Shown one piece after another: positions 1,957 through 56,412 of a stretch of DNA of 64,000 bases. The notes beneath the pieces were generated by a model. The model did not search any database and was not told the DNA's origin. It was given only the letters and a program-made list of their open reading frames with translations. Each line of letters begins with the position of its first letter. Positions within the stretch are counted from its first letter, which is position 1. The position numbers and the translations under genes were made by a program. The stretch is from Alphaproteobacteria bacterium (GTDB lineage Bacteria; Pseudomonadota; Alphaproteobacteria; Micavibrionales; UBA2020), in the NCBI GenBank assembly GCA_016794125.1, contig JAEUKT010000004.1, forward strand, positions 133,460 through 197,459, written 5' to 3'.

Positions 1957-1971
1957 GGCTCACCTAAATAA

Positions 1972-2922: not shown

Positions 2923-2923
2923 G

Positions 2924-4039: not shown

Positions 4040-4193
4040 CGCGGGTTTCGTTCCTTGGGGAATCTTGGAGTAGGGGAACTATAGAAAATAGGGATTACTA
4101 TGACAAGGCGGAATCGGTGTATTTTTGTCATAATAACACAGCGCGTGACAGGAATCCTGCGGCTCTCTATGCTGCAGCATCAGGCAGGGCAAA

Positions 4194-4793: not shown

Positions 4794-4798
4794 CCTTC

Positions 4799-30214: not shown

Positions 30215-30230
30215 TTAATAAAGTATTAAC
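30215..30230. promoter_or_regulatory. Perfect CtrA box TTAA-N7-TTAAC in the fliF / flaG divergent region
   Basis: TTAATAAAGTATTAAC read directly. A one-mismatch box (TTAAGGGCATTTTAGC) lies at 30168-30183 and a TAACCAT motif near 30258. Confidence 0.6.
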
Positions 30231-31828: not shown

Positions 31829-32656
31829 TTAACCGAACAGGCGGAGAACCGCTTGGTTCGACTGCGAAGCCAAGGACAGAGAGGTGATGCCAAGCTGCTG
31901 GGTCGTTTGCAGAGACAGCAGTTTCGCGCCTTCCTCGTTCTTGTCGGCGACGGTCAGTTTGTCAGAGCCTTCTTTCAGAACGTTGATCAGGTTCTGGGTG
32001 AAGTCCTGGCGGGTCTGGATGATGTTCAGGCTGGTACCGAACGAAGCGGCCGTGTTACGGACGGTCGTCAAGTCTGCAGCGATTGCATCCAGCGTAGCCT
32101 GGGTTGCGGTTGTATCAGCCCATGTACCGCCCGTTGCCGCGACGGTCAGGTCGTTACCAACAGTCAGGTCGGCACCGGTGATGTCGAGGGTGGAGTCGCC
32201 CGCTTCGTTGAAGGTCACCGACAGGGTCGATGCGCCGGCAACGAGGTTCGAGCCGCGATAGCCGGAGTCGCCAGCCAGGTCGTCGATCTGATTGAGGACT
32301 TCGTCAAAGCTGGCTGCCAGGGTGGTAACGTCAGCGGTCGGATCGGCGTTCAGCTGGTCCTGTGCTTCCTGGGCGATAGCTTGCGCCTGCTCGAGGAAGC
32401 TCGTGATCTGCTTGATACCTTCGTCAGCTGCTTTCAGCACCTGGATCGCCTGGCCCTGGCCGTCCAGGAGACGGTTCAGGTCATTCGCGCGGTTGGTCAG
32501 GGATTGCGAAGCGAAGAACGCGCTGGGGTTATCCAGAGCGCTGTTAACTTTCAAGCCCGTTGCAAGACGGAGCTGGGTAGAGTCGAGAAGTTTTTGGGTG
32601 CCCTGAAGGCTCAGGAGGTTCGAGCGAAGGGCGGCAGTGAGAGTAACGTCAGCCAT
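31829..32656 (-). CDS. Flagellin (short, ~275 aa, Caulobacter-type)
   Basis: The N-terminus LRSNLLSLQGTQKLLDSTQLRLATGLKVNSALDNPSAFF and the C-terminus QQLGITSLSLASQSNQAVLRLFG are canonical flagellin D0/D1 segments. Confidence 0.95.
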   Translation of the reverse strand: MADVTLTAALRSNLLSLQGTQKLLDSTQLRLATGLKVNSALDNPSAFFASQSLTNRANDLNRLLDGQGQAIQVLKAADEGIKQITSFLEQAQAIAQEAQDQLNADPTADVTTLAASFDEVLNQIDDLAGDSGYRGSNLVAGASTLSVTFNEAGDSTLDITGADLTVGNDLTVAATGGTWADTTATQATLDAIAADLTTVRNTAASFGTSLNIIQTRQDFTQNLINVLKEGSDKLTVADKNEEGAKLLSLQTTQQLGITSLSLASQSNQAVLRLFG

Positions 32657-35818: not shown

Positions 35819-35885
35819 GGCTGCCGCCTTCCTGATGCGGATAGTCGGCCAGCCGTCAGGCGGAATCAAGTCCAAAAATGAAGCC

Positions 35886-35927
35886 AAAAAATCAGGGGCT
35901 CCCCGGCTTTCTGCCAGCGGAGCCCCC
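35886..35927 (-). terminator. Rho-independent terminator after flgE
   Basis: Minus strand: GGGGGCTCC...GGGGAGCCCC then TGATTTTTTGG. A second hairpin (CCTTCCCC/GGGGAAGG) lies just upstream. Confidence 0.7.
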
Positions 35928-43054: not shown

Positions 43055-43076
43055 GCGTCAAACGAATGCAGAAAAA

Positions 43077-43105
43077 AGCCCCCGCGAAACCGGGGGCTTT
43101 TTTTA
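43077..43105 (+). terminator. Rho-independent terminator after dksA
   Basis: GCCCCCG-CGAAAC-CGGGGGC followed by TTTTTTT. Confidence 0.85.
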
Positions 43106-43586
43106 TGTGAGAACGCCCGTTCCGAGTCGCAATCGAGTCGCGATTTTTTCGGTCAATTTTCTGCGGCAGAGCGGGCGGGCGCGATAAAAAAACTTTCTCG
43201 TGCGTGTGATAAATATTTTGGAAAATAACCGCGCATCGTTTTGCGACTTAACTGCTTGCGTTTCAAAGCCTGAATAGGAAAAACGCGCTAATGCTTATCG
43301 TTGTTGAGTTTCTTTGCGTAATCGTGAAGGAGATTTCAAGTTTATGTGAAAATATGATTTTCATAAACTATGCTTTTCGCCCGATCCGATATGCTTCATA
43401 CGCGTTTCTTGAAATTAAAATGCTGCCGTGCAGCGCATCTTTTTTCGACTCTTTCGTTTTTTCATCTTGTCGGTTTCATAAAAACTGATACCGTTCTCAT
43501 TGTTAAAAAAACGCTCCACAAACTGCGACAAAAAACCTCCGTCACAAGCAAGACGGGCATGGATCTCTTTTGAACGCGGTGGCCAA

Positions 43587-43602
43587 TTAACGAAACTTTA
43601 AC
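43587..43602 (+). promoter_or_regulatory. Perfect CtrA box TTAACGAAACTTTAAC 19 nt upstream of the vWA-protein ATG
   Basis: TTAA-N7-TTAAC read directly at the 3' edge of a ~480-bp AT-rich spacer. Confidence 0.6.
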
Positions 43603-43620
43603 TGTTACGGGTTTAAATAC

Positions 43621-46600
43621 ATGGCTGCGCCCTCTGACCGTAGAAAGATCGAGAGCATTTTGCGCGAACCGCTGACGCGGCATCGCCTGATGCTGAACTC
43701 GAAGCTGCGCGCCGCTCAAGCAGACGAAAACCCCACGCCTTTCACCTTTGAAGACCTCAAGGCCTTCATGGGCGCGATCCGCAGCGCCGACCCCAACTAT
43801 CAAAAAGAAACGCTGAACGCGCTCGAGGCCGTCGCAACAGGCAAGGCACCGCAGGAGCCGCGCTTCGATACGCCCGAAACACAATTGATCTGGGGCGCCT
43901 CGCTTGCTTACCTCTCGGCAAACCCCGACCAGATGAAAACCTGGCTGAAGCCGCCAGCCGAAGGCGTGGCGCTTCCCCAGACGGAACTGTGGAAACAGGT
44001 TTCCACCACCGATTACGCCTACGGCGAATTGCTCAGCCACGCCCACCACATCCGCGAAGCACTGCGCGACAAGGACACGAAATACGGCTGGGGCGAACCC
44101 GGCACCGGTTTCACGTTCGACCGCTCCAAGAACCTGATCAACGTCGATTTCATGCAGTCGATGATCGTGGGCTTTGAACATGCCCGCGCCGATGTGTATC
44201 GTGAAATCGGCCACTCGCTGCTCTCGGTCACCTATCCGAAGCGGATGAAGGAAGTTTTCAAGGAAATGCAGCCGCTGATGAAAAAATCGCGGCTGGCGCA
44301 GGCGAAGAAGGGCCCCAAGCTCAAGCCTGACGAATACAAAAAACTGACGATGCTGTCGACCGAATGGCAGCTGCGCCACATGCTGTTCTCGGCCGCTGAA
44401 GAAAACGTCGCCAACCGCTTTGTGTCCAATATGGGCTCGCAGCTGCTGCAGGATTTCGGCGTGTCGCTCAACAACACCGCCGTCACGCATCGCGGCGTCG
44501 GCCTGACGCGCCTGCCCAACGACGGCATGTCCGAAGAACTGAAACGCTATATGAACCTATGCAACACGGTTCAGCTCAGCTTCTTCGCCAACAACGCGCT
44601 GTTCGACAATACCGAAGCCGGCTGGGCGAAGGTCGGCATCGACCCGAACCTTGTCCGCAAAACATCGACGCTGGCGGCGCGCCCTGCTGGCCAAAAAGAC
44701 GACACCGACGGCATCAGCCATCCCGATTTCCAGCACCTGCGCGAGTTGGCGGGCGGTCCGAAAGGCCTCGAGAATTTGCAGCCCAAGCAGCACGAACGTC
44801 TGTTCGGCTGGGCGAACCTGCGCAACCGCGTTGAACGCGCCGATGCCGACCGCAAGGAAATCATCGAAGAAATCTGGCGCGATTACGCCGAAGACCTGAT
44901 TCAGAAAATCCTGAAGATGGCCAATGACCAGATCGATGAAAATCTGGACAAGGCGCAAAAGGATCCGAAGAACCAGAAAGACAAAAAACAGGACGGCAAG
45001 GACCTCGACCAGGATCAGGACGGCGACGATCAGGATGGCGACGACGGCCAGGATGGTCAGGACGGACAAGACGGTCAGGACGGGCAAGAAGGCCAAGGCC
45101 AGGGTAAAGGCAAGGGCAAAGGTAAAGGCAAGGGCAAGCCCCAAAAAGGCAAAAAGGATCGCGGCAAGCCGCAAGGCGAGCAGGACGATGCTGATTCCGA
45201 TGACGCAGACGGCGACGACGCCGATGGTCAGGAAGGCAAAGACGGCCAGAAAAAAGACGGCAAAGATAAAGACGGCAAAAAAGGCGATAAAAAAGGCGAC
45301 AAGAAAGAAAAAGGCAAAAAAGGCGAGAAGGGCGAAGACGGCGAGGAGCAGGACGGCGACGGCGAAGATGGCGAAGGCCAGGACGCTGACGGCGAAGAGC
45401 AAGACGGCGACAAGCAGGGCAAGCAAAAAGGCAAAGGCAAAGAAGGCAAGCTCGGCCAGGACGACGAAGACACCGTTCCCGTCGAAGGCGCCGGCGACCA
45501 GCCCGCCCCCAAAGGCTCGACCGAACTGCCCAGCGACGAACTGGACCCGAACGGCGAAGGCAAGGATGCCGACGGCGAGGACGGCGACGGCCAGGACGCT
45601 GATGGCGAAGATGCCGATGGAGAAGACGCTGACGGCGAGGATGCCGACGGCGAAGACGGCATGACCGCTGATGACCTCGAAAAAGAGCTCGAGAAACGTA
45701 AACAAAAAGGCCAGGACGGCGAAGACGGACAAGATGGCCAGGACGGCCAGGATGGCGACGGCAAGGGCAAACCCGGCAAAGGCAAACCCGGCAAGGACGG
45801 CAAACCGTCCAAGCAGGCGGGCCATGGCGACGGCAAATCGCTCGAAGAACTCGCCAAGCTGGATTGGACCGACTACCAGAAACGCATCGCGGAACTGGCG
45901 GGTCCCATCACGCGCGTGCGCAAATTGTTCAAGGATGTTCAGGAACGCCAGCTGCAGCGCAAGCGCGCGGTGTCGTCGTCGCTCGAAATCCTGCCGGAAA
46001 ACGGCGAGGTGAAGGACCGCTTCAACGTCGAGGCGCACCGCAACCTGACCATCAAGCGCAAGACCGGCGATGTCGAAGAAAACGACCTGAAACGCTTCCA
46101 TAGCGACCAAGTGAAGATGGTGCCGACCGAAGTCGATATCGTCATCATGATCGACGGATCGGGCTCGATGAACGGCACGGCGCTCAACTCCGCGCTGCAG
46201 GCGGCCGCGATCATGTTCGAAGCCGCATCCGGCAAAGACATGAAGATGAACGTCTATGTCGGCATGTGGGGCGATGCAAACCCGCCCATGCTGATTACGC
46301 CGGGTGCCGACCGCGTCGAAATCGGCAAGCAGATGGCGCGCGCGCAAAAGGGCCTGAATTCCGGCACCGACCTCGCGCCCGCGATCAAGAAGGTCGCGAA
46401 AACCATCGGCGAACAGCGCGGCAAGAGCGGCACGCTGTCGGGCTTCACGCATGTCCTGATCATATCGGACGGCGACATGTTCGACCCGGCGCCGTCGGTC
46501 GAGCGCATCATGACCATGTTCGAATACTCGGACAAAGTCACGTTCGACACGGCGATTATCGGCCGTCCGGGCACGAGCATGGAAACGATGGCCAGGAAGA

Positions 46601-46788
46601 TCAAAGGCCACAAGAACTACCAGGACGTGGGGGTTACGCTTGGTAGCAATCCCAACGAAATCCCGATGGCTATCGTCGGGCTACTACTTGAAAAAGTGAA
46701 GAAGGTCGGCAGCTTTGTCGCCATTCCGAACAGTCAAAAACGCCGGGCCATGAATAGGGCTCATAACAAAATGGATAGGAAGCCATGA
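43621..46788 (+). CDS. Large uncharacterised protein: ~430-aa N-domain, ~300-aa polyampholyte spacer, C-terminal vWA domain with a complete MIDAS
   Basis: vWA signature VDIVIMIDGSGSMNG (DxSxS) ... NSGTDLAPA ... VLIISDGDMFD. The low-complexity D/G/Q/E and K/G blocks are plain by eye. Normal coding composition, unlike its antisense ORFs. Confidence 0.85.
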   Translation: MAAPSDRRKIESILREPLTRHRLMLNSKLRAAQADENPTPFTFEDLKAFMGAIRSADPNYQKETLNALEAVATGKAPQEPRFDTPETQLIWGASLAYLSANPDQMKTWLKPPAEGVALPQTELWKQVSTTDYAYGELLSHAHHIREALRDKDTKYGWGEPGTGFTFDRSKNLINVDFMQSMIVGFEHARADVYREIGHSLLSVTYPKRMKEVFKEMQPLMKKSRLAQAKKGPKLKPDEYKKLTMLSTEWQLRHMLFSAAEENVANRFVSNMGSQLLQDFGVSLNNTAVTHRGVGLTRLPNDGMSEELKRYMNLCNTVQLSFFANNALFDNTEAGWAKVGIDPNLVRKTSTLAARPAGQKDDTDGISHPDFQHLRELAGGPKGLENLQPKQHERLFGWANLRNRVERADADRKEIIEEIWRDYAEDLIQKILKMANDQIDENLDKAQKDPKNQKDKKQDGKDLDQDQDGDDQDGDDGQDGQDGQDGQDGQEGQGQGKGKGKGKGKGKPQKGKKDRGKPQGEQDDADSDDADGDDADGQEGKDGQKKDGKDKDGKKGDKKGDKKEKGKKGEKGEDGEEQDGDGEDGEGQDADGEEQDGDKQGKQKGKGKEGKLGQDDEDTVPVEGAGDQPAPKGSTELPSDELDPNGEGKDADGEDGDGQDADGEDADGEDADGEDADGEDGMTADDLEKELEKRKQKGQDGEDGQDGQDGQDGDGKGKPGKGKPGKDGKPSKQAGHGDGKSLEELAKLDWTDYQKRIAELAGPITRVRKLFKDVQERQLQRKRAVSSSLEILPENGEVKDRFNVEAHRNLTIKRKTGDVEENDLKRFHSDQVKMVPTEVDIVIMIDGSGSMNGTALNSALQAAAIMFEAASGKDMKMNVYVGMWGDANPPMLITPGADRVEIGKQMARAQKGLNSGTDLAPAIKKVAKTIGEQRGKSGTLSGFTHVLIISDGDMFDPAPSVERIMTMFEYSDKVTFDTAIIGRPGTSMETMARKIKGHKNYQDVGVTLGSNPNEIPMAIVGLLLEKVKKVGSFVAIPNSQKRRAMNRAHNKMDRKP
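44955..45840 (+). repeat. Coding short-tandem-repeat tract (DGQ, KG, GEDAD, GKGKP units)
   Basis: Repeat blocks: 45044-45090 (GAYGGNCAR)n; 45103-45138 (GGYAAR)n; 45568-45660, 15-nt period; 45709-45810. Confidence 0.85.
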
Positions 46789-49421
46789 AAAACAACAAGA
46801 CCTCGCCGCTGAAGACGCCGCTGAAAGACCTCTCGCCTGAGGATCTGAAGTCTCTCGAGAAGCCCCTTGGCACCTCCGACCGCCCCTACCCGATGTGGGG
46901 TTCGCAGCGCGTCGAGCATAACGGCCGTGCCGATCTCGAGCAGGTTTTGTCCGTCATCGCCGACGACACCTATCCGATGAAAGTTTTCTCGGACCGTCCC
47001 TATAAAGAAGTCATCGCCATGGCGTATGCGGACATGCCCGTCCCGTCCATGCTGCCGCTGTTCTTCGACGGTCTGGAACGCCGCAAGCCGGCCTCCACCA
47101 ACCGCACGCAGATGATGATCGGCGATCCCGGTGCCGGTAAATCCTTCCTGGGCGCGCTGCAAGGCCGCCTGCGTTCGCGCGACCCGATCGAAGTCCTCGA
47201 TTGCGGCGGCAAGAACATGCGCGAATTGCTGTTCGAAATGGTTCTCGATTTCGGCGCGGGCGACGCACTGCCGAAAGCGATCGACAAACGCCTGCAGGCA
47301 GGCGCGCTCGAGCCTATGTCTGTTGCGCTGCTGAAAGGCCTGCCCTCCGAAGTCGTCAGCCTGAACGCTGACGGCCAGGTCGCATCGATCGACTGGAACG
47401 GCCTGAAAACGGTCGGCACCGACAAAGTTGAATCCGCGTTCGAAGTCCTGAAAAAAGTCTCGAAAATCGAAGGCCTCGACAACGCCGGCGGCAACGCGCT
47501 CGGCATGAACTCGCAATACGGCCCGCTGATCCGCAAATTCATGGCCGGCGAAGAAATCGTCCTCGACGAGTACAACAAATCGCGCGAAGGCACCGACGAC
47601 AACCTGCAAACCGTCTGGCAGTTCTGCATCGGCGAATTGAAGGAATGCACGGTCGAAAACCCGCTGAAGAACAAAGACGCTTCGGCAGGCCCCTCCGAAT
47701 TCACCTTCCGCCGCGAAGACATGAAGCCCGGCTTCTTCGTCACCCTCACCGGTAACAAAAAAGAAGACGGCGTCACCACGCGCTCGCTCAACAAATCGGT
47801 CTATTCGCGCCTGTCGCCCCAGACGCTGCCCGATCCCGACATTATCGACTGGCAGCACCGTATCTGCCAGATGATGGTCGGCCTGCCCGTTTCCACGCTC
47901 TATACCGCGTTCAAGGAACAGGCAGATAAAGATCCCGATGCGTTCGGCGAATGGCTGATGTGGCTCCGCAAGACGAAAGCGGAAACCGAAGGCGGCCAGA
48001 TCCCCGAGCTGCAGGAAACGCTGCTGAAAAACTGGAAAAACGTCGTCAACTCGTCGGAAAAACTCGCGAAGTTCTACGACAAGTGGCAGCAAATGACGGA
48101 TTCCGAGAAGATCACCTCGAACGGCCATGCCGACCTCGTGGAAGAAGTTGACGATGAATACTCGAAGAAAGAGGGCATCGACTTCCGCAAGATCAAGCAG
48201 CACCTGGAAGAGGCGATTCCAATCCGCCCCCGCATGCAGAAAGAAGACGCACCCCGCCCCATGAGCATGGGCAACTGGGACAAGGCGCCGAAGCTGTCCG
48301 AACCGGTCGAGGAAAACCCCTCGCTCAATTTCGGCACGCGCCTGACCGAGTTCCTGGAGCGCATGGTGTACGAGAAATCGGGCGCCGTCGGCAAAAACAA
48401 GCTCTACATGAAGCTGCAAAAAGGCATGCAGGAATTCGCGCTGCGCGACATCACCCTGCAGGAAGCCGCGCGCTCCAAGCAGCGTTCGGTGGAAGAAGAC
48501 CTGAACATCTCCGCGTTCAATGACCGCGACCTGTCCAAACAGGCGATCATGGCGCGCAAAGTGTTCTGCGACTTCTTGCGCCAGACCAACCCGGAAATCA
48601 CGGCGACCAACGATGAAATCGTCACGCCGAAGAAATTCCTGGATGCGCTGACCTATGTCTCGCAAAAAGACAACGCGCCGACCAACGAACTGTTCGTCGC
48701 CAACCGCGATCCGGAGACCGTGTTTGCCGGCCACCCGCTCGCAGGCGCGATCATCAAGGACACGGCCGTCTATGCGCTGCAGAACAAGGACCTCGACTTC
48801 ACGCTGAAGGACCTCGTGCATCACGACGATTTCATGGCATCGCTCGCCATGCCGACCGTCGGCGCGAAAAACCTCTCGGCTGTCTGGGAACAGAACATCC
48901 GCCCGCTGACCAAGGGCGCCGCGAATGACAGCGCCGCACCTGCTGCGGCTCCGGCATCCTCGGGTTCCATCCTCGACCATGACGAGGCGCTGTTCATCGC
49001 CGAAGGCAAGTCGGACAAGAAGATCGCGACGACGTCCGTCCAGGTTCTTTACTCCGACGAACAGGGCGAGCGCCCCGTGACGATCCATATCGTCCGCAAC
49101 GAAGCGCGCAACAAGACGCTGGTGGTGTCCGAAAAGGCGCCGTCCAAGCTGCTGTCCGCGTTCAAGGAAGCGGGCGTGATCCATGTGGACCGCCATGACG
49201 CAAACGCCGAGGCGAAAGTCGATGCGGCGATCACGGAACTGACCCGCGGCATGCAGCCGTCGATCAAGGACCGACTGGTCGACGCGTTCAAGTATCGCAA
49301 CGACGTGGATGTCGAGCACCTGAAAGGCAAGACGCCCACGCTGCCGCAACTCCTGACCGACGATAAGGTGGACATGATGTACGCCAAATTCGTGGTCAAG
49401 AAAAACGCGGTCGGCCTGTAA
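46785..49421 (+). CDS. Large AAA+ ATPase (MoxR/AAA_5-like core) with a ~550-aa uncharacterised C-terminal extension
   Basis: ATGA overlap with the upstream gene. Walker A MIGDPGAGKSFL, Walker B EEIVLDEYNKS, sensor-1-like FFVTLTGN, Arg-rich TTRSLNKSVYSRL. Confidence 0.85.
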   Translation: MKNNKTSPLKTPLKDLSPEDLKSLEKPLGTSDRPYPMWGSQRVEHNGRADLEQVLSVIADDTYPMKVFSDRPYKEVIAMAYADMPVPSMLPLFFDGLERRKPASTNRTQMMIGDPGAGKSFLGALQGRLRSRDPIEVLDCGGKNMRELLFEMVLDFGAGDALPKAIDKRLQAGALEPMSVALLKGLPSEVVSLNADGQVASIDWNGLKTVGTDKVESAFEVLKKVSKIEGLDNAGGNALGMNSQYGPLIRKFMAGEEIVLDEYNKSREGTDDNLQTVWQFCIGELKECTVENPLKNKDASAGPSEFTFRREDMKPGFFVTLTGNKKEDGVTTRSLNKSVYSRLSPQTLPDPDIIDWQHRICQMMVGLPVSTLYTAFKEQADKDPDAFGEWLMWLRKTKAETEGGQIPELQETLLKNWKNVVNSSEKLAKFYDKWQQMTDSEKITSNGHADLVEEVDDEYSKKEGIDFRKIKQHLEEAIPIRPRMQKEDAPRPMSMGNWDKAPKLSEPVEENPSLNFGTRLTEFLERMVYEKSGAVGKNKLYMKLQKGMQEFALRDITLQEAARSKQRSVEEDLNISAFNDRDLSKQAIMARKVFCDFLRQTNPEITATNDEIVTPKKFLDALTYVSQKDNAPTNELFVANRDPETVFAGHPLAGAIIKDTAVYALQNKDLDFTLKDLVHHDDFMASLAMPTVGAKNLSAVWEQNIRPLTKGAANDSAAPAAAPASSGSILDHDEALFIAEGKSDKKIATTSVQVLYSDEQGERPVTIHIVRNEARNKTLVVSEKAPSKLLSAFKEAGVIHVDRHDANAEAKVDAAITELTRGMQPSIKDRLVDAFKYRNDVDVEHLKGKTPTLPQLLTDDKVDMMYAKFVVKKNAVGL

Positions 49422-49430
49422 GACCAGGTC

Positions 49431-49778
49431 ATGAGCGTTCCGGCCAACGAGAGGCATGTAATGTCGACGGGATTGATGGAAGAAGTGGCGGCCGCGGTCG
49501 CCCAGCAAAAAGCGATGGAGCGTGGACCTGTGTTCCTGCCCCATGGCAGCCGCCTCTTCCATGTCCCCTCGGGCTGGGAAGCCAATATGATAAAGCACGA
49601 CAAGGCTGTCACGTCGTGCGAGACGCTTCTGGAGCTGGAGGCGGGCCTTCAAAACCCTGACGTCAAGGTGATGTTCATTCCATTGAACGCGCTGATGACG
49701 GAACAGGACATTGAAAAGGTCTGCCACCGGAACGGAGTAACCAAAACTCTCTACAAAGAGATCAAGGGGACGATATGA
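49431..49778 (+). CDS. Small hypothetical protein (105-115 aa)
   Basis: Lies 9 nt after the AAA+ stop, and its own stop overlaps the next ATG (ATGA). The better SD (GAGAGG) precedes the second ATG at 49461. Confidence 0.6.
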   Translation: MSVPANERHVMSTGLMEEVAAAVAQQKAMERGPVFLPHGSRLFHVPSGWEANMIKHDKAVTSCETLLELEAGLQNPDVKVMFIPLNALMTEQDIEKVCHRNGVTKTLYKEIKGTI

Positions 49779-51274
49779 GCGGTGGACGTTATATCAAGCA
49801 GGCCATCATTGCGGCGCTGGTTGAACATCCCGAACAGGAAAAATACAAGACGCGCGCGTTTTCGGGCGAAAACCTGACCGCGATGATGGAGGCTATTGCC
49901 GAACAGGGCAACAAGCTGACCAAGGCGGATTTCCTGACACCGGATGACGAAGGCAAATACATCGTCGATACCCCCGGCTTCTGGAAGAATTTCGACAAGG
50001 TGCGCGACATCGTCGCGAAATCCGGCGAAAAATTCGTCATGGAAGACTTTACCAAATACCTCGACCGCAACGAGACGCGCAACCTGCTGGATTCCGCGCG
50101 CGAACATGGCGGCCTTGGCAAAATTTTCGCCGTTGAAACCTTCAATGGCCGCTACGACGAAATGGAGCGCCTCTGGTACAAGGTTCCCGTGCCGTCGCGC
50201 CGCGACCTGTTCAAGAACGACGGGTTGCTCGATCCGTCGCTGAAGCGCAGCATGCTGGCCGCCGAAGGCCGCGTGATGCCCGAAGACAACCTTGCCAAAG
50301 CCGGCCTGACGCCTGCCGACCTGCGTAACGCGTTTCAGGAACGCGGCAATTACGAAGAAGTCACGCGCAAGCTTTCCGCCGTCGGCGATTACCTGCGCAA
50401 AGATTATCTTCTGCTACCCGACAGCTCCGGCGACACCGTGTTTTACTACCAAGGCGCGTGGGACAAGTTCGATGATATCTCCCGCAACCTCAAGGCGCAT
50501 GGCGAAAAATTCGAAACCGCCGATTTCGTGCGTCAGGTCGGATTTGTCTCCAACATCCTCACCCGCGCATCGGAGCGCAAGGCGCTCTACCGCGTGTTCA
50601 ATGCCGAGCATTGGGAAGGCCGTCTGGCCGATATGCAGGATCTGTGGGGTCAGGTGAAAGAAGGCTGGAAAACGGCCTCCATGACCTCCAAGGACTTCGA
50701 TACGTCCTATGCCGAAGCGGAAAGCAAAACTTACGCGAAGAACGTCAACTTCGCGGCGCTCTCCGGCAAGGCTGACCTGATGAAACCGCTCGAGCCGAAT
50801 GGCCCCGCCATCCTGCCGCTCGGCCTCAAGGCGTTCTGGGATAATTTCGCAACCGCGCAGGCATCGCTGGGCAATGATAATCTCACCGTTTCCGACCTGC
50901 GCCAGACCAGCGGCTATATGGGCGCATCGGTGCTGATGGGCGCGGTGAAATTCGGCCATTTCGACAAGGTTGTCGATATCTCGCGCAAATCCGGCGAACC
51001 TCTGACGCTCGACGATTTCCTGTCGAAAGACCGCCACGGCAATTCGCTGCTGAACATTCTGGCGGAGCGCAACCAGCTCAGCCAAGTCTTCACGCCCGAT
51101 CTGTGGGCCGGCCGCGTCGATGACATGAAAACGCTCTGGACGCATGTGCGTATCAACGACCGCAGCCAAGTCGATATCGCGCAGGCCGAAGTCGCCGCAA
51201 AACAGGCGACGCTGAAACTGCAGGCAAAAGACCGCTTCAAGCTCGGCGGCAAAAAGCCCGGCTTTGGCATGTAA
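49775..51274 (+). CDS. Uncharacterised 499-aa protein built from internal repeats
   Basis: Three copies of SGE.[FL]...DF-(~10-16 aa)-[IL]L...[SE]...L..[IV]F....[FW].GR.D[DE]M..LW..V (aa 83-136, 242-294, 406-457), each preceded by a [FW]W.NF/ W.KF element. Confidence 0.8.
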   Translation: MSGGRYIKQAIIAALVEHPEQEKYKTRAFSGENLTAMMEAIAEQGNKLTKADFLTPDDEGKYIVDTPGFWKNFDKVRDIVAKSGEKFVMEDFTKYLDRNETRNLLDSAREHGGLGKIFAVETFNGRYDEMERLWYKVPVPSRRDLFKNDGLLDPSLKRSMLAAEGRVMPEDNLAKAGLTPADLRNAFQERGNYEEVTRKLSAVGDYLRKDYLLLPDSSGDTVFYYQGAWDKFDDISRNLKAHGEKFETADFVRQVGFVSNILTRASERKALYRVFNAEHWEGRLADMQDLWGQVKEGWKTASMTSKDFDTSYAEAESKTYAKNVNFAALSGKADLMKPLEPNGPAILPLGLKAFWDNFATAQASLGNDNLTVSDLRQTSGYMGASVLMGAVKFGHFDKVVDISRKSGEPLTLDDFLSKDRHGNSLLNILAERNQLSQVFTPDLWAGRVDDMKTLWTHVRINDRSQVDIAQAEVAAKQATLKLQAKDRFKLGGKKPGFGM

Positions 51275-51305
51275 CAAATTTCAGGGGATATGCCTCTTTG
51301 ATTGG

Positions 51306-51338
51306 AAAAGCCGGAACCGCAGGGTTCCGGCTTTTTTC
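51306..51338. terminator. Bidirectional terminator between the four-gene operon and cysQ
   Basis: AAGCCGGAACC-GCAG-GGTTCCGGCTT followed by TTTTT. Confidence 0.8.
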
Positions 51339-52370: not shown

Positions 52371-52586
52371 ATGAAAGCTGTTCTGAAACCGGCGCTGGAG
52401 AATCTGGACAAGGCGTTGCAGCGTCTCGAGACCGCCGTTGAAAAGCAATTCGTCCAGGCCAAAAAAACCAAAGAGGAGCCGATGCTGGCCCTCGACCGCA
52501 ATGAACGCGAAGTGAACAAGAAAATCGCCGCGCGCCTCGACCAGACGATCAACCGTCTGGAAACGCTGCTGATGGAGGAAGCGTAA
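52371..52586 (+). CDS. zauP: Small coiled-coil protein upstream of zapA (DUF4164/ZauP-like)
   Basis: 71-aa charged coiled coil whose stop lies 1 nt before the zapA ATG. The position matches the alphaproteobacterial zauP-zapA pair recalled from memory. Confidence 0.55.
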   Translation: MKAVLKPALENLDKALQRLETAVEKQFVQAKKTKEEPMLALDRNEREVNKKIAARLDQTINRLETLLMEEA

Positions 52587-52587
52587 C

Positions 52588-52923
52588 ATGGCTGAAGTGA
52601 ACATCACGCTCAACGGGCGCGCCTACGAAATCGCCTGCGATCCCGGCCAGGAAGGCCGCATCGTTGACCTTGCCGCCTATATCGACCAGCGCGTGCAGAA
52701 AATCGCGCGCTCCGGCGGCGCGTACAACGACTCCCACCTGCTGGCGCTTGTCGCGCTGGTGCTGGCGGACGAGCTGTTCGAGGCGCGCGAGCAAGCGGCC
52801 GGCGCACCCGCCGCCGCCAAAGCGCCCGCAGCGTCGAAAGAAGACGAAGCCGCGCTTGCCAAACTGCTGGAGAACCTGTCGAAACGTATCGACGGTATTG
52901 CCCAACGGGTGCAAGCGGCCTAG
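52588..52923 (+). CDS. zapA: Cell division protein ZapA
   Basis: VNITLNGRAYEIACDPGQEGRIVDLAAYIDQRV is a typical ZapA N-domain. Confidence 0.85.
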   Translation: MAEVNITLNGRAYEIACDPGQEGRIVDLAAYIDQRVQKIARSGGAYNDSHLLALVALVLADELFEAREQAAGAPAAAKAPAASKEDEAALAKLLENLSKRIDGIAQRVQAA

Positions 52924-52926
52924 ATT

Positions 52927-53097
52927 AAGGGCGGAAGGGGCTATGGCGTGCGTAAGACAGCACTGTCCCAGAGGCCGATGCAAATCGCTAGGGGACTGCC
53001 TCTGCCCGCGCTCCGGTGCGGTTATGCGGTTCCCACCTGTAACCCAGGGCCTAGCGGATACCCCCCGTCGACGGCGTTTCACGGCTCCTTCCACCTT
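52927..53097 (+). ncRNA. ssrS: 6S RNA (SsrS), boundaries approximate
   Basis: Conserved zapA - ssrS - 5-FCL ligase synteny. A ~170-nt non-coding gap whose ends pair as a long closing stem (AAGG.GGAAGGGGC with GGCTCCTTCC.CCTT). Confidence 0.6.
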
Positions 53098-53121
53098 CAT
53101 TTCTAACCGGAGCGCCAAGGC

Positions 53122-53706
53122 GTGCTGAGCAAAGACACCCTGCGGCAGAAAGCCTTCCAGAAACGCCTGACCGTGCCGCCCGCCTATCAGGAAGAGGCGG
53201 CGCAGAAGTTCAAGGACAACTTCCTCGCACACATCGCCCTGCCGCCCAAGGGCTCGGTCATTTCCGCCTATATGCCGTTCAACGCCGAACTGAACGTGAA
53301 ACCGCTGATGACGCATCTGCTGGATGACGGCTATATCATCGTGATCCCGCATGTTGTGAACAACGACCGCAGCCTTGATTTCCGCACCTGGACGCCCAAG
53401 ATGCCCGTCTATCGCAACCTGCACGGCATCGAGGAAGCCGACCTGCGCCATTCGCAGGTCTATCTGCCCGACCTGATGATCGTGCCGCTGATCGCATTCG
53501 ATGTGAAGGGCAACCGCATGGGCTATGGCTCGGGGCAGTTCGACCGCACCTTCGCGCATTTGCAGGATGTGCGCAAAGAATTCACCGCCATCGGCGTCGC
53601 CTATGAAAGCCAGCGCGAAGACGAAGTGCCGGTCGATGTCCATGACTATCCCCTGCACAAGATCGTGACGGAGCTGAACGTCTATAACTGCCGGGAGGCC
53701 GAATAA
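53122..53706 (+). CDS. 5-formyltetrahydrofolate cyclo-ligase
   Basis: VPLIAFDVKGNRMGYGSGQFDR motif. GTG start; position after ssrS. Confidence 0.85.
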   Translation: MLSKDTLRQKAFQKRLTVPPAYQEEAAQKFKDNFLAHIALPPKGSVISAYMPFNAELNVKPLMTHLLDDGYIIVIPHVVNNDRSLDFRTWTPKMPVYRNLHGIEEADLRHSQVYLPDLMIVPLIAFDVKGNRMGYGSGQFDRTFAHLQDVRKEFTAIGVAYESQREDEVPVDVHDYPLHKIVTELNVYNCREAE

Positions 53707-55143: not shown

Positions 55144-55220
55144 CGGAGTGTAGCGCAGTCCGGTAGCGCGCCTGTTTTGGGAGCAGGATGTCGGGGGTTC
55201 GAATCCCTCCACTCCGACCA
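55144..55220 (+). tRNA. tRNA-Pro (anticodon UGG)
   Basis: Cloverleaf folded by hand: acceptor CGGAGTG/CACTCCG, anticodon loop TTTGGGA, T-loop TTCGAAT, encoded CCA. Confidence 0.9.
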
Positions 55221-55548: not shown

Positions 55549-55646
55549 TTTTTCTCCCCTAACTCACTGATTCTAAAGGCCTAGGCGGAATCCGCTTAAT
55601 GCTTTCCCTATTCCTGTGCTAAAATATCCAAATACCAGAGGGGCAT

Positions 55647-55853
55647 ATGCGGCATATCACGATCCAGATCGAATACCTGCCTGAAAATGTGTATCTCGCG
55701 ACCAGCGAGGACCTGCCCGGCTTTAACGTGGAAGCCGAGGACCGCGAGGAAATTTTCAAGCTCTCGCAAACCCTTGCCATCGACTTTTTGAAGCTGGACG
55801 GCGAGGTTGCCCCCGGCGAAGAAATCACGATCGACTTCGAGGTGAAGGAATGA
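55647..55853 (+). CDS. hicB: HicB-like antitoxin (UPF0150 fold, no DNA-binding extension)
   Basis: 68 aa, YLATSEDLPGFNVEAEDREEI pattern. 4-nt overlap with the following hicA-like gene. Confidence 0.6.
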   Translation: MRHITIQIEYLPENVYLATSEDLPGFNVEAEDREEIFKLSQTLAIDFLKLDGEVAPGEEITIDFEVKE

Positions 55854-56278
55854 GCACTGGCGTTCCCCGCGACTACAACAAGGTTGTGAAGGCCGCGAAA
55901 GAGCTGGGCTATGCATACAGCCACTCCACAGGCGGTCATGATTTTTACGTGCATGACAATCCCGACAAATCCATCGGCCAGTCCAAAAAGCTGACCATAC
56001 CGACCGAGATCAAGGGCGTCGGCACGCTGCGCAGCATCCTGAAGGATATGGGCTATTTCGAGGCCAACGGCCTTGATCATGCCGGTCACCCCAAATCCCA
56101 AAAACGCGATGTGGAGGCTGAACTGGCCGCCGCAGAGCGCAAAAGCGAAACCAAGTTCCTGACCGATACCCGCGAATGGAAAAAAGAAATGAAACGCCAT
56201 TACCGCGGCATCGTGCCCGACCATCCGGGCGAAGCGCCGCAGCGCGCCGCCGTCACAATCAGCGCCCCCAAGCCCTGA
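55850..56278 (+). CDS. hicA: HicA-like toxin with a ~75-aa charged C-terminal extension
   Basis: VVKAAKELGYAYSHSTGGHDFYVH ... IKGVGTLRSILKDMGY matches the HicA core (G.....GSH......GTL..IL...G). Confidence 0.6.
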   Translation: MSTGVPRDYNKVVKAAKELGYAYSHSTGGHDFYVHDNPDKSIGQSKKLTIPTEIKGVGTLRSILKDMGYFEANGLDHAGHPKSQKRDVEAELAAAERKSETKFLTDTREWKKEMKRHYRGIVPDHPGEAPQRAAVTISAPKP

Positions 56279-56330
56279 AACGCGGAATTTAGGCAAGTTT
56301 GCCAGAATGGCCAAAATAGGCTAAAACAAG

Positions 56331-56412
<82 letters not shown>

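What the first reader, a model, noticed from the sequence alone, without database searches (positions are those of the whole stretch)
43587..51338. Uncharacterised four-gene operon: giant MIDAS/vWA protein, giant AAA+ ATPase, small protein and repeat protein
Seen in sequence: four same-strand ORFs are packed as one unit. There are ATGA overlaps at 46785-46788 and 49775-49778 and a 9-nt gap at 49422-49430. The unit is bounded 5' by a ~480-bp AT-rich spacer with a perfect CtrA box and 3' by a strong hairpin terminator. Gene A (1055 aa) ends in a vWA domain with a complete MIDAS (DGSGS, SGT, SDGD), preceded by a ~300-aa acidic/basic low-complexity spacer and a ~430-aa N-domain with no motif I recognise. 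Gene B (878 aa) has one AAA+ core (GDPGAGKS, IVLDEYN, TLTGN) of the MoxR/AAA_5 type. It also carries ~115 aa N-terminal and ~550 aa C-terminal sequence that I cannot assign. Genes C (~105 aa) and D (499 aa, internal repeats) are also unassignable. Established knowledge: MoxR-type AAA+ and vWA pairs act as two-component remodelling or metal-insertion chaperones (CbbQ/CbbO, NorQ/NorD, CoxD/CoxE, CobS/CobT, BchI/BchD). They also form the core of the vWA-MoxR-VMAP conflict systems. An acidic spacer before a MIDAS domain is the hallmark of CobT, BchD and eukaryotic midasin. Inference: this looks like a strongly expanded member of that logic, with both partners about 1.5-3x the usual size and two extra dedicated genes that could be client or adaptor. 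It sits at the edge of the flagellar/cell-cycle regulon rather than beside any obvious client such as Rubisco, NOR or cobalamin/chlorophyll genes. I cannot name its function.
Basis: partly seen in the sequence, partly recalled or inferred. Interest (0 to 1): 0.8.

Follow-up and report, generated by a model that had tools for sequence, protein, structure and literature searches.

The report
Uncharacterised giant AAA+–MIDAS protein machine
A four-gene operon kept intact across a group of uncultured, Micavibrio-like alphaproteobacteria encodes an oversized ATP-driven motor, a partner with a metal-dependent gripper domain and a disabled protease domain, a small subunit and an ankyrin-like repeat protein. 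It belongs to a known class of protein-remodelling machines but to no described family, and its client is unknown.

Summary
Four same-strand ORFs (A 1055 aa, B 878, C 115 or 105, D 499) are packed with ATGA overlaps. They are preceded by an AT-rich spacer with a perfect CtrA box and followed by a strong terminator.

- **A** has an intact vWA/MIDAS domain.
- **B** is an AAA+ ATPase with invariant Walker A, Walker B and sensor-1 motifs. Its predicted fold resembles NorQ, CbbQ, Mdn1, dynein and HslU.
- No curated model (Pfam, NCBIfam, PADLOC, PHROGs) recognises B, C, D or the N-domain of A.

New findings:
- B's family has 295 clusters at 50% identity, almost all about 850-1000 aa.
- A-B-C is a fixed triad in every sampled locus. 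A fourth gene, often ankyrin or ankyrin-like, commonly follows.
- A's N-domain carries HExxH in distant relatives. In the window's clade it reads REIGH, so it looks like a dead zincin-type peptidase.
- The 230-320-aa acidic spacer is specific to this clade.
- D is three internal repeats with an ankyrin-like signature.
- In the window's clade the operon sits in fixed synteny (flgI-fliX-dksA | A-D | inositol monophosphatase). Distant copies sometimes lie beside integrases, restriction or TIR genes.

Verdict: a new variant of the MoxR-vWA remodelling kind, with client unknown.

The parts
43066..43106 (+). Hairpin terminator after dksA. It marks the 5' boundary of the unit.
   Evidence: Read (aaaaaagcccccgcgaaaccgggggcttttttt). 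The scan lists the minus-strand version at 43085-43068.
43107..43620 (.). AT-rich intergenic spacer and promoter region of the operon.
   Evidence: GC is 0.44-0.45. In most syntenic relatives a CobD/CbiB-family gene occupies this position, and no remnant is detectable here.
43587..43601 (+). CtrA-box-like site TTAACGAAACTTTAA, 20 nt upstream of the A start codon.
   Evidence: Two perfect sites occur in the window against 0.14 expected. A perfect box lies 33-43 nt upstream of A in L001, L002, L003, L005, L006, L010, L011 and L018. It lies at other distances in L021-24 and L031, and is absent in L007, L025, L027, L033 and L034.
43621..46788 (+). Gene A, 1055 aa. It consists of a zincin-like (degenerate) N-domain, a polyampholyte spacer and a vWA/MIDAS domain.
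43621..44955 (+). A N-domain (aa 1-445). It is mostly helical, with a three-strand sheet followed by the 'active-site' helix.
   Evidence: The AF2 model has pLDDT 90.6 and pTM 0.87. There is no significant global PDB match. The only low-rmsd local hits are the minigluzincins jannalysin, selecase and abylysin.
44200..44214 (+). Degenerate zincin motif R194-E-I-G-H198, at the position of HExxH.
   Evidence: Relatives outside the clade read HEIGH, HEIAH, HELAH or HELGH. In-clade sequences read R/G at the first His and a variable residue at the second.
44956..45834 (+). Low-complexity D/E/G/Q/K spacer (aa 446-738), net charge -44, encoded by in-frame short tandem repeats.
   Evidence: Composition and length are given: 228-320 aa within the clade, 86-169 aa outside it. 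DNA tandem repeats have periods of 9, 15, 18, 30 and 45.
45472..45531 (+). Conserved linear motif inside the spacer, TVPVEGAGDQPAP...ELP (aa 618-637).
   Evidence: The motif is conserved through the clade while the surrounding spacer is not.
46132..46650 (+). vWA domain with MIDAS (DGSGS at 46153-46167, T916, D950).
   Evidence: Pfam VWA_2 scores 36 bits against a cut-off of 27. The MIDAS residues are invariant or nearly so. hhalign to E. coli ViaA vWA gives probability 68.5%, E 4.6e-5.
46785..49421 (+). Gene B, 878 aa. It consists of an N-terminal beta domain, an AAA+ core with a roughly 100-aa insertion between Walker A and B, a lid, and a roughly 430-aa C-terminal extension of unassigned fold.
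   Evidence: The AF2 model has pLDDT 85.5 and pTM 0.77. Foldseek matches HslU, Mdn1, NorQ, CbbQ and dynein.
47121..47144 (+). Walker A GDPGAGKS (aa 113-120).
   Evidence: G118 and K119 are invariant in 50 relatives down to 22% identity.
47556..47576 (+). Walker B IVLDEYN (aa 258-264).
   Evidence: D261 and E262 are at least 90% conserved.
47748..47756 (+). Sensor-1 TGN (aa 322-324), followed by the conserved stretch TTRSLNKSVYSRL.
   Evidence: N324 and R342 are invariant.
49431..49778 (+). Gene C, 115 aa (or 105 aa from the ATG at 49461). It is the small third subunit that always follows B.
   Evidence: A gene of about 91-112 aa follows B, directly or after one intervening gene, in all 10 distant loci sampled and in the syntenic loci. 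It has no family or PDB match.
49775..51274 (+). Gene D, 499 aa. It contains three internal repeats of about 110 aa (aa 31-138, 190-295, 352-466) that are ankyrin-like.
   Evidence: hhalign between the repeats gives probability 98.8-99.4%. Repeat 3 against an ankyrin consensus gives probability 90.7%. There are 93 full-length homologs.
51304..51337 (+). Intrinsic terminator closing the operon. It also serves the convergent inositol-monophosphatase gene.
   Evidence: The stem has 15 pairs and is followed by a T-run.

Best explanation
The operon encodes a dedicated, ATP-driven protein-remodelling machine of the MoxR-AAA+/vWA-MIDAS kind, in a previously undescribed architecture.

- **B** is the motor. 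It is presumed to form a ring, like other MoxR-type ATPases, and carries three extra domains.
- **A** is the co-factor. Its C-terminal vWA domain docks on or in the ring, and its MIDAS site grips an acidic residue of a client.
- **A's N-terminal module** is zincin-shaped. It is a probable metallopeptidase in distant relatives but has lost its zinc-binding histidines here, so it now acts only as a peptide- or protein-binding module.
- **The spacer** of about 290 aa is disordered and acidic/basic. It tethers the two ends of A and carries one conserved short motif that probably contacts B.
- **C** is an obligatory small third subunit.
- **D** is an ankyrin-like repeat protein that acts as adaptor or client.

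In this Micavibrio-like lineage the module is a fixed, vertically inherited chromosomal operon. It is probably switched on by CtrA together with class II flagellar genes, that is, in the motile or cell-cycle-specific phase.

Shown: gene content, motif conservation, folds, synteny and conservation of the CtrA box. Inferred: ring formation, docking, which protein is the client, and CtrA control.
For: - **Motor:** B has invariant Walker A, Walker B, sensor-1 and arginine positions over a family of 295 clusters at 50% identity.
- **Fold of B:** the AF2 model (pLDDT 85.5) matches NorQ, CbbQ, Mdn1, dynein and HslU and phage MoxR-like ATPases.
- **Profile link:** distant family members P0292 and P0266 pass the Pfam AAA_5 cut-off.
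- **vWA/MIDAS:** A's vWA passes the Pfam cut-off and its MIDAS residues are conserved.
- **Zincin module:** HExxH sits on the helix after a three-strand sheet in relatives outside the clade and is degenerate inside it. Local fold hits are to minigluzincins.
- **Triad:** A, B and C are found in all 10 distant loci sampled, contiguous in A-B-C order in 7 of them. A fourth ankyrin-type gene is frequent.
- **Synteny:** the A-B-C-D order and the flanking genes are conserved in 21 loci down to about 50% B identity.
- **CtrA box:** it is conserved upstream of A in several sublineages. The only other perfect box in the window lies upstream of fliF.
- **Mechanistic frame:** the NorQ/NorD work shows a hexamer, a vWA plug with a finger in the pore, and client carboxylates (PMC9976466).
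Against: - No client is identified, and no neighbouring gene suggests one.
- Pfam AAA_5 does not detect the window's B. hhalign of the B profile against E. coli RavA aligns only the P-loop.
- Foldseek E-values are modest, 5e-4 to 1e-2, with TM-scores of 0.45-0.55 on the target side.
- The zincin assignment rests on a motif plus local, non-significant fold hits (E 2.5-5).
- The CtrA box is absent from some syntenic relatives. No expression or binding data exist.
- Ring formation and A-B-C-D contacts were not modelled.
Confidence: 0.55

Rival explanations
1. The operon is a biological-conflict (anti-phage or abortive-infection) module. The AAA+/vWA pair would gate a tethered metallopeptidase effector, with the repeat proteins (ankyrin, pentapeptide, LRR) acting as sensors or decoys.
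For: - Distant family members keep HExxH.
- One copy sits beside Eco57I-type restriction and TIR/ThsB-like genes (L017).
- One sits between phage-tail genes and an integrase (L012).
- Others lie near a resolvase (L014) or a transposase HTH gene.
- One assembly carries two paralogous copies (L013 and L015).
- The fourth-gene slot varies: D-type repeats, ankyrin, or a weak LRR match.
- The logic parallels the vWA-MoxR ternary conflict systems (PMC7159879).
Against: - For the window's copy, synteny is fixed and inheritance looks vertical across the clade.
- Its divergence is similar to neighbouring non-mobile genes. At the depth where B is 42-51% identical, FliX is 43-49% and the inositol monophosphatase 40%.
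- The peptidase motif is lost.
- There are no PADLOC hits and no relatives in IMG/VR viral contigs.
- The vWA is C-terminal, not N-terminal as in VMAP systems.
- Three or four of the distant loci have plain housekeeping flanks.
Confidence: 0.15
2. The operon is a metal-cofactor insertion or chelatase-type chaperone analogous to CobS/CobT, BchI/BchD or NorQ/NorD. It would serve a metalloenzyme encoded elsewhere.
For: - The AAA+ plus acidic-linker-vWA layout resembles CobS/CobT and BchI/BchD (established knowledge).
- One source annotates an A homolog as 'Mg-chelatase subunit ChlD'.
- In most syntenic relatives a CobD/CbiB-family gene lies directly upstream of A.
Against: - There are no profile hits to CobT, CobT_C, CobS_N, Mg-chelatase or NorD families, even at E up to 1.
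- The CobD-like gene is absent from the window and from all distant loci. Where it is present, the CtrA-box promoter region separates it from A.
- The acidic linker is clade-specific.
- No CobN or BchH-like large subunit, and no metalloenzyme client, is seen in any locus.
Confidence: 0.1
3. The operon is a flagellum- or polarity-specific assembly or disassembly factor that belongs functionally to the adjacent flagellar regulon.
For: - It lies next to fliX-dksA and a large flagellar cluster.
- It shares a perfect CtrA box with the fliF upstream region.
- This adjacency is kept across the clade.
Against: - The whole region is syntenic, including the non-flagellar genes dksA, inositol monophosphatase and ymdB, so adjacency alone is weak evidence.
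- Distant family members are never next to flagellar genes.
- The gene table of M. aeruginosavorus ARL-13 shows the flgH, dksA, fliX, flgI arrangement without giant genes beside dksA (PMC3189940 supplement).
Confidence: 0.12

Closest known systems
NorQ/NorD and CbbQ/CbbO (MoxR AAA+ with a vWA partner)
   Same: The system is two-component, with an AAA+ motor and a vWA/MIDAS protein encoded side by side. B's model finds NorQ and CbbQ chains with Foldseek probability 1.00. The MIDAS site is intact. The mechanism expected is a ring, a vWA plug and capture of a client carboxylate (PMC9976466).
   Different: B is about three times larger, with an N-terminal beta domain, a roughly 100-aa insertion between Walker A and B, and a roughly 430-aa C-terminal extension. 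A has a zincin-like N-domain in place of the NorD or CbbO N-domains. There is an obligatory small third gene and an ankyrin-like fourth gene. No client gene lies nearby, and there is no profile-level similarity.
RavA/ViaA of E. coli
   Same: It is a MoxR ATPase with an extra domain plus a vWA partner in one operon. A's vWA aligns to ViaA's vWA (probability 68.5%).
   Different: The B profile aligns to RavA only at the P-loop. The gene order is reversed (vWA first). There is no LARA-like domain evidence, and genes C and D have no counterpart.
CobS/CobT and BchI/BchD chelatase subunits
   Same: An AAA+ protein pairs with a protein that has an N-domain, an acidic low-complexity linker and a C-terminal vWA/MIDAS domain.
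   Different: There are no hits to the CobT, CobT_C, CobS_N or Mg-chelatase models. A's N-domain is zincin-like, not AAA-like. The linker is a clade-specific expansion. No large chelatase subunit is present.
Midasin (Rea1/Mdn1)
   Same: It has an AAA+ ring, a long D/E-rich unstructured linker and a terminal MIDAS domain. Mdn1 is among B's Foldseek matches (6or5, E 1e-3).
   Different: Midasin is one polypeptide with six AAA modules. Here there is one AAA module per chain, and the MIDAS protein is a separate chain. No UBL-type client has been identified. The resemblance is analogy, not membership.
vWA-MoxR ternary conflict systems (VMAP, iSTAND, FtsH, beta-propeller types; Kaur et al. 2020, PMC7159879)
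   Same: There is a vWA-MoxR core plus a conserved third component and variable extra proteins. Peptidase domains are among the attached modules. Some distant copies lie in mobile or defence contexts.
   Different: In those systems the vWA is N-terminal with C-terminal effectors. Here the vWA is C-terminal. The third component is a roughly 100-aa protein, not a VMAP or iSTAND. PADLOC gives no hits. The window's copy is a fixed core-genome operon.
COG3864/DUF2201-type proteins (putative metallopeptidase N-domain plus vWA-like domain, usually next to a MoxR gene). Recalled from my own knowledge, not tested against a reference sequence.
   Same: The domain order is the same (zincin-like, then vWA), as is the pairing with a MoxR-type ATPase.
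   Different: The Pfam scan lists no match of A or its distant homologs to DUF2201 or DUF2201_N models, even at E up to 1. A is two to three times longer.

Membership tests
AAA+ ATPase, MoxR/AAA_5 (helix-2-insert clade) | Walker A GxxGxGK[ST], Walker B hhhDE, sensor-1 Asn and conserved arginines | tested here: met
   The motifs GDPGxGKS, DEYNKS and TGN are present. G118, K119, N324 and R342 are invariant, and D261 and E262 at least 90% conserved, over 50 relatives down to 22% identity.
AAA+ ATPase, MoxR/AAA_5 (helix-2-insert clade) | Match to the Pfam AAA_5 profile above the curated cut-off | tested here: inconclusive
   The window's B has no AAA_5 hit even at E up to 1. Family members P0292 (25.2 bits) and P0266 (24.9 bits) pass the 22-bit cut-off. 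hhalign against RavA aligns the P-loop only.
AAA+ ATPase, MoxR/AAA_5 (helix-2-insert clade) | Fold similarity to solved MoxR-clade ATPases | tested here: met
   Foldseek against the PDB finds NorQ (9qh4, 9qh7, 9qh8), CbbQ (6l1q), Mdn1 (6or5) and dynein, with probability 0.93-1.00, E 1e-3 to 1e-2 and target TM-score 0.42-0.55 for NorQ and CbbQ. HslU also matches.
AAA+ ATPase, MoxR/AAA_5 (helix-2-insert clade) | Helix-2 insert and pre-sensor-1 beta-hairpin | tested here: inconclusive
   The secondary structure of the AF2 model shows a roughly 100-aa insertion between strand 136-139 and the Walker B strand 257-261. It also shows a strand pair (287-291 and 305-309) before the sensor-1 strand 318-324. 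Coordinates could not be inspected, so the topology is inferred.
AAA+ ATPase, MoxR/AAA_5 (helix-2-insert clade) | Hexameric ring and ATP hydrolysis | not testable with these tools
   This needs biochemistry or multimer modelling.
vWA domain with MIDAS | Profile match above the cut-off | tested here: met
   Pfam VWA_2 scores 36 bits against a cut-off of 27, over aa 840-951.
vWA domain with MIDAS | DxSxS ... T ... D metal-coordinating residues conserved in orthologs | tested here: met
   D845, S847, S849 and D950 are invariant and T916 is at least 90% conserved in 29 sequences, including three at 26-29% identity.
CobT/CobS (aerobic cobaltochelatase) or BchD/BchI | Profile matches to the CobT, CobT_C, CobS_N or Mg-chelatase families | tested here: not met
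   Pfam gives none at E up to 1, and NCBIfam gives nothing.
CobT/CobS (aerobic cobaltochelatase) or BchD/BchI | Large substrate-binding subunit (CobN or BchH) or pathway genes in the neighbourhood | tested here: not met
   None is seen in the window or in 30 or more related loci. Only a CobD/CbiB-family gene occurs in some relatives, and it is absent here.
vWA-MoxR-VMAP ternary conflict system | N-terminal vWA with C-terminal effector domains | tested here: not met
   The vWA is at the C-terminus of A and the zincin-like module is N-terminal.
vWA-MoxR-VMAP ternary conflict system | VMAP-C-containing third protein | not testable with these tools
   No VMAP-C model is available. C is only about 100 aa and has no hit in Pfam or PADLOC.
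Zincin/gluzincin metallopeptidase (A N-domain) | HExxH zinc-binding and catalytic motif | tested here: not met
   The window reads R194-E-I-G-H198. All in-clade sequences lack the first His. Nine relatives outside the clade have HExxH. The window protein is therefore filed as a pseudo-peptidase, not a peptidase.
Zincin/gluzincin metallopeptidase (A N-domain) | Zincin core fold (sheet, active-site helix, Glu helix) | tested here: inconclusive
   In the AF2 model, strands 154-176 are followed by helix 185-201. Foldseek local hits are to jannalysin 4jix (rmsd 2.5 over 66 columns, probability 0.89), selecase 4qhi and abylysin 4jiu, with E-values of only 2.5-5. E248 is invariant and E260 at least 90% conserved on the following long helix.
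Ankyrin-repeat proteins (D) | Profile match to Ank models | tested here: inconclusive
   Pfam gives no Ank hit for the window's D. hhalign of repeat 3 against a consensus ankyrin, written from memory, gives probability 90.7%, E 1.3e-6. The L012 homolog of D has a sub-threshold Ank_2 hit (E 2.3e-5). Genes in the same slot are weakly Ank in L041 and bona fide Ank in L017 (E 5e-43).
Known anti-phage defence systems | Match to any PADLOC-DB v2 model | tested here: not met
   A, B and C have no hit. D has only a chance-level hit at E 0.012.

The most novel reading that the evidence does not exclude
The family began as a mobile conflict module in which an AAA+ motor and a MIDAS gripper control a tethered metallopeptidase, aided by ankyrin-type sensor or adaptor proteins. 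In one order-level lineage of Micavibrio-like, presumably predatory, alphaproteobacteria it was domesticated. The protease was inactivated, and the tether was expanded into a roughly 300-aa polyampholyte, giving a split-chain analogue of midasin's D/E-rich linker plus MIDAS. The operon was fixed in the core genome under CtrA control. There it would remodel or extract a specific protein complex at a defined point of the motile or attack-phase cell cycle.
Probability: 0.2. Interest if true: 0.8.

Novelty: new variant of a known kind. Interest (0 to 1): 0.6.

Why it matters
MoxR-vWA pairs are widespread, yet only a handful have known clients: Rubisco, nitric oxide reductase, CO dehydrogenase and chelatases.

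Here is a sizeable family, 295 clusters at 50% identity, that no curated library recognises and that has a fixed four-part architecture. The same scaffold occurs in two states. In one it carries a probable active metallopeptidase and sits in mobile or defence-like contexts. In the other the peptidase is dead, the tether is hugely expanded, and the operon is a core-genome unit with a conserved CtrA box.

That contrast makes two things testable: how AAA+/MIDAS machines are re-purposed, and what a lineage of uncultured Micavibrio-like bacteria does with one at a specific cell-cycle stage.

The recurrent link to ankyrin-type repeat proteins is also unusual for bacterial MoxR systems. It gives a concrete handle for finding the client.

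Tried and rejected
**Searches that found nothing**
- Pfam, NCBIfam, PADLOC and PHROGs scans of all four proteins returned only the vWA of A.
- Sequence and profile searches of PDB chains for A, B, the A N-domain, C and D gave nothing significant.
- A scan of IMG/VR viral contigs with the B alignment found no relatives.
- A broader 50-sequence alignment was too divergent to derive search patterns.
- Literature searches found no description of this architecture. The terms tried were vWA-MoxR/VMAP, Micavibrio with vWA and AAA, DUF2201 with MoxR, and MoxR with vWA, metallopeptidase and ankyrin.

**Comparisons that were weak or negative**
- hhalign of the B profile against E. coli RavA aligned only the P-loop.
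- Foldseek of the B model against BFVD returned only generic MoxR/dynein-type phage ATPases and nothing for the C-terminal half.
- Foldseek of the A N-domain gave no significant global match.
- D is not homologous to the fourth gene of L014.
- tblastn found no remnant of the CobD-like gene in the window's spacer.

**Interpretations considered and rejected**
- CobT/CobS orthology.
[quoted passage not shown] **Not achieved**
- A firm taxonomic placement. Only labels on related MAGs are available: 'Micavibrio sp.', 'Bdellovibrionales bacterium' and 'Alphaproteobacteria bacterium'.

Full report
**1. What is there**

The ORF scan gives four same-strand ORFs:
- A, 43621-46788 (1055 aa)
- B, 46785-49421 (878 aa)
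- C, 49431-49778 (115 aa)
- D, 49775-51274 (499 aa)

The A/B and C/D junctions are ATGA overlaps, and a 9-nt gap separates B from C. C may instead start at the ATG at 49461, which has a GAGAGG upstream. That gives 105 aa, the length typical of its orthologs.

Upstream, the dksA stop (43054) and its hairpin terminator are followed by about 510 bp of 44-45% GC DNA. A perfect TTAA-N7-TTAA site (TTAACGAAACTTTAA, 43587-43601) ends 20 nt before the A start codon. Only two such sites occur in the 64-kb window, against 0.14 expected. Downstream, a 15-pair hairpin with a T-run (51304-51337) closes the unit in front of a convergent inositol-monophosphatase gene.

The neighbourhood is as follows:
- Upstream: a flagellar cluster with a sigma-54 activator, fliG, fliF, flaF, flagellin, flgE-like, fliK, flgN and flgI, then fliX and dksA.
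- Downstream: the inositol monophosphatase, 6S RNA, ymdB and a DUF192 gene.

**2. The individual proteins**

*Protein A.* The only curated-model hit is the vWA domain (VWA_2, 36 bits, aa 840-951). NCBIfam, PADLOC and PHROGs give nothing for any of the four proteins. The MIDAS residues D845, S847, S849 and D950 are invariant and T916 is at least 90% conserved across 29 homologs, three of which are only 26-29% identical. The vWA aligns to E. coli ViaA's vWA (hhalign probability 68.5%).

*Protein B.* The motifs GDPGxGKS, DEYNKS, TGN and TTRSLNKSVYSRL are invariant or nearly so. G118, K119, N324 and R342 stay invariant in a 50-sequence alignment reaching 22% identity. An AlphaFold2 model built from 81 homologs is confident (pLDDT 85.5, pTM 0.77). 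Its secondary structure shows five parts:
- an N-terminal beta domain;
- an AAA+ alpha/beta core with a roughly 100-aa insertion between the second strand and the Walker B strand;
- a strand pair before sensor 1;
- a helical lid;
- a roughly 430-aa C-terminal extension.

Foldseek against the PDB returns only AAA+ proteins. These are HslU, which has an insertion at a comparable place, then Mdn1, NorQ, CbbQ and dynein. E-values run from 5e-4 to 1e-2, with probability 0.9-1.0. NorQ and CbbQ give target TM-scores of 0.42-0.55. BFVD returns phage MoxR/dynein-type ATPases.

Pfam AAA_5 does not see the window's B. It does pass its cut-off on two distant family members. hhalign of the B profile against RavA aligns only the P-loop. 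So B is an AAA+ ATPase of MoxR-like fold that lies far outside the sequence space of the described MoxR subfamilies.

**3. The N-domain of A is a decayed zincin**

The alignment with distant homologs and a wider table show what is there. Outside the window's clade, the helix following a small beta-sheet reads HEIGH, HEIAH, HELAH or HELGH in nine sequences: L012, L013, L014, L016, L017, L038, L040, L041 and P0173. There are two single-residue variants, HQIAH and QEMAH.

Inside the clade the first histidine is always replaced (R, once G). The second is variable (H, Y, R, Q, L, K, F, A, E). The window reads R194-E-I-G-H198. On the next long helix, E248 is invariant and E260 at least 90% conserved, in an AE(E/N)N motif. 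That is where gluzincins place their third zinc ligand, according to established knowledge of the fold.

The AF2 model of aa 1-445 is very confident (pLDDT 90.6, pTM 0.87). It places strands 154-176 directly before helix 185-201. Foldseek finds no significant global match. The only low-rmsd local hits are the minimal gluzincins:
- jannalysin 4jix (rmsd 2.5 over 66 columns, probability 0.89);
- selecase 4qhi;
- abylysin 4jiu.

I therefore read the N-domain as a novel helical domain built around a zincin core. It is probably catalytic in distant relatives and a pseudo-peptidase in the window's clade. This is motif plus weak fold evidence, not proof.

**4. The spacer**

Residues 446-738 are D/E/G/Q/K-rich: 96 acidic and 52 basic residues, net charge -44. 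They are encoded by in-frame tandem DNA repeats of period 9 to 45. Within the clade the spacer is 228-320 aa and always net acidic. In P0173, L012, L013 and L014 it is 86-169 aa. It is therefore a clade-specific expansion rather than a family hallmark.

One island inside it, (T/K)VPVEG(A/M)GDMP...E.P (aa 618-637), is conserved while its surroundings are not. I infer a docking motif, possibly for B.

**5. C and D**

C has no detectable relatives in any library. It is weakly conserved, with only G39 and W49 near-invariant over 20 sequences. Even so, a gene of about 91-112 aa follows B, directly or after one intervening gene, in every locus examined.

D has 93 full-length homologs of 43-99% identity. 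It consists of three units of about 110 aa that are clearly homologous to one another (hhalign probability 98.8-99.4%). The third unit matches a consensus ankyrin repeat, which I wrote from memory (probability 90.7%, E 1.3e-6).

The D homolog in L012 shares the F-P-x-x-W-x-G-R-x-D-M-x-x-L-W repeat signature. It also has sub-threshold Pfam Ank hits.

**6. How wide is the family, and is the unit conserved?**

B has 223 word-indexed homologs. Nearly all of the 120 listed are full length, every one that carries a name is called 'hypothetical protein', and none has a Pfam domain. An exhaustive profile search of 1.84 billion representatives finds 295 clusters at E up to 1e-3, of which 177 are at E up to 1e-30. 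Nearly all are 850-1000 aa.

In 21 loci from genomes and metagenomes the order A-B-C-D is intact. These have B identity down to about 50%. One more locus at 42% has A split into two ORFs and C below the BLAST threshold. The flanks are the same wherever the contig reaches them: fliK-flgN-flgI on one strand, fliX-dksA before A, and the inositol monophosphatase, ymdB and DUF192 after D.

At the deepest level the identities to the window are as follows:

| Protein | Identity |
|---|---|
| DksA | 80-82% |
| FlgI | 72-77% |
| YmdB | 56-60% |
| FliX | 43-49% |
| IMPase | 40% |
| B | 42-51% |
| A | 42-50% |
| C | 37-38% |
| D | 36-42% |

These are ordinary rates for non-core proteins. They are not the signature of rapid diversification.

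Related MAGs are labelled 'Alphaproteobacteria bacterium', 'Micavibrio sp.' or 'Bdellovibrionales bacterium'. NCBI files Micavibrio under Bdellovibrionales. The clade is therefore Micavibrio-like, which is inference from labels only. The window's B and D are MBL8713779.1 and MBL8713781.1.

The published gene table of M. aeruginosavorus ARL-13 shows flgH, two small ORFs, dksA, fliX and flgI, without giant genes beside dksA (PMC3189940 supplement). The type species therefore lacks the operon at least at that position.

**7. Distant copies**

Ten loci of distant B relatives (22-31% identity) were fetched. All encode the A, B and C proteins:
- Seven have A-B-C contiguous.
- One has A as a fragment followed by B and C (L015).
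- One is ordered B, a 204-aa gene, C, then A, after an array of ankyrin genes (L016).
- One is ordered A, Ank, pentapeptide repeat, Ank, B, C, Ank (L017).

The gene after C varies:
- D-type or weakly Ank in L012 and L041;
- bona fide ankyrin in L017 (E 5e-43);
- a non-homologous protein with a weak LRR match in L014;
- absent in L013 and L039.

The contexts are mixed:
- L012 lies between phage-tail/GTA-like genes and an integrase.
- L017 follows Eco57I-type restriction and TIR/ThsB-like genes.
- L014 is near a resolvase and a terminase fragment.
- The locus is near a transposase HTH gene.
- L013, L015 and L039 have housekeeping flanks.
- L013 and L015 come from the same assembly, so there may be two paralogous copies. 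The caveat is that it is a MAG.

No relatives were found in IMG/VR viral contigs.

**8. The CtrA box**

A perfect box lies 33-43 nt upstream of the A start in L001, L002, L003, L005, L006, L010, L011 and L018. This holds even where the surrounding DNA has diverged (TTAACGACTGTTTAAC in L005, TTAACCAAGTGTTAAC in L006). A perfect box is also present at 135-183 nt in L021-24 and L031. None is present in L007, L025, L027, L033 or L034.

In L005 the box lies between an upstream CobD/CbiB-family gene and A, so it belongs to A's promoter region. The window's only other perfect box (30215-30229) lies in the intergenic region upstream of fliF. By established knowledge, fliF is the classic CtrA-dependent class II flagellar operon in Caulobacter.

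CtrA control of the operon is therefore plausible for the window's sublineage, but it has not been demonstrated.

**9. Interpretation**

The best-supported reading is a dedicated AAA+/MIDAS remodelling machine of the MoxR-vWA kind with a new architecture. In this reading:
- B is the motor.
- A's vWA is the ring-docking, client-gripping element, following the NorQ/NorD model of a vWA plug with a finger in the pore and client carboxylates (PMC9976466).
- A's dead zincin module is a second binding site on a long flexible tether.
- C is an obligatory small subunit.
- D is an ankyrin-like adaptor or client.

The wider family looks like a conflict-type module in some genomes: it has an intact peptidase, variable repeat proteins, and mobile or defence neighbours. 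This parallels the logic of the vWA-MoxR ternary systems (PMC7159879), but with a different domain order and a different third component.

For the window's copy, four things argue for a domesticated, lineage-specific housekeeping or cell-cycle role rather than active defence:
- fixed synteny;
- ordinary evolutionary rate;
- loss of the catalytic motif;
- the conserved CtrA box.

A chelatase-type or metal-insertion role is not supported. There are no profile matches, no large subunit and no client gene. The CobD-like neighbour seen in relatives is absent here and in all distant loci.

**10. Verdict**

It can now be sharpened to a conserved A-B-C(-Ank) system, a pseudo-zincin on A, a clade-specific tether, an ankyrin-like D, and a family of about 300 clusters unknown to curated libraries. 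It is a new variant of a known kind of system. The client and the biological role remain unknown, and I could not assign folds to B's C-terminal half, to C or to D.

Noticed in passing
window 52935-53091 (+): A 6S/SsrS RNA gene (Rfam RF00013, 51.9 bits against a gathering score of 46.4). The 369-aa ORF at 52549-53658 on the opposite strand overlaps it, has no Pfam hit and is probably spurious.
   Followed up: partly
window 30215-30229: This is the only other perfect TTAA-N7-TTAA (CtrA-box) site in the window. It lies in the intergenic region upstream of fliF (28181-29884, minus strand), which is followed by fliG and a sigma-54 activator (24761-26125). This is consistent with a CtrA-dependent class II flagellar promoter.
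   Followed up: partly
L005 5672-6613; L021 3563-4555; L025 3353-4354; L030 1785-2753; L031 3339-4376; L032 3509-4525; L034 3509-4513; L036 2434-3441: In most syntenic relatives a CobD/CbiB-family membrane-protein gene (Pfam PF03186, 76-100 bits in the three that were scanned) lies between dksA and gene A. It is missing from the window and its closest relatives, where the AT-rich spacer lies. tblastn finds no remnant.
   Followed up: yes
window 32823-34565 and 34298-35887 (minus strand): Two adjacent TPR-plus-sulfotransferase genes lie next to the flagellin gene (31829-32656, minus strand). They may modify flagellin or a glycan.
   Followed up: no
L036 3659-5125 / 5118-7877 and L037 439-1905 / 1898-4882: In the most divergent syntenic relatives, gene A is split into two ORFs, the N-domain and the spacer plus vWA. 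This is either a real split or a frameshift in the low-complexity region.
   Followed up: no
L016 1-9563: At least seven ankyrin-repeat genes in an array lie immediately upstream of a distant B homolog. There the gene order is B, a 204-aa gene, C, then A.
   Followed up: partly
L017 1-4665: An Eco57I-type restriction/modification gene, a DUF5131 gene and a TIR (ThsB-like) gene lie directly upstream of a distant A-Ank-pentapeptide-Ank-B-C-Ank cassette. The setting looks like a defence island.
   Followed up: partly
window 55144-55220 and 56336-56412: tRNA-Pro(TGG) and tRNA-Arg(TCT) flank a 231-aa ORF (55619-56314, minus strand) that has no Pfam hit.
   Followed up: no
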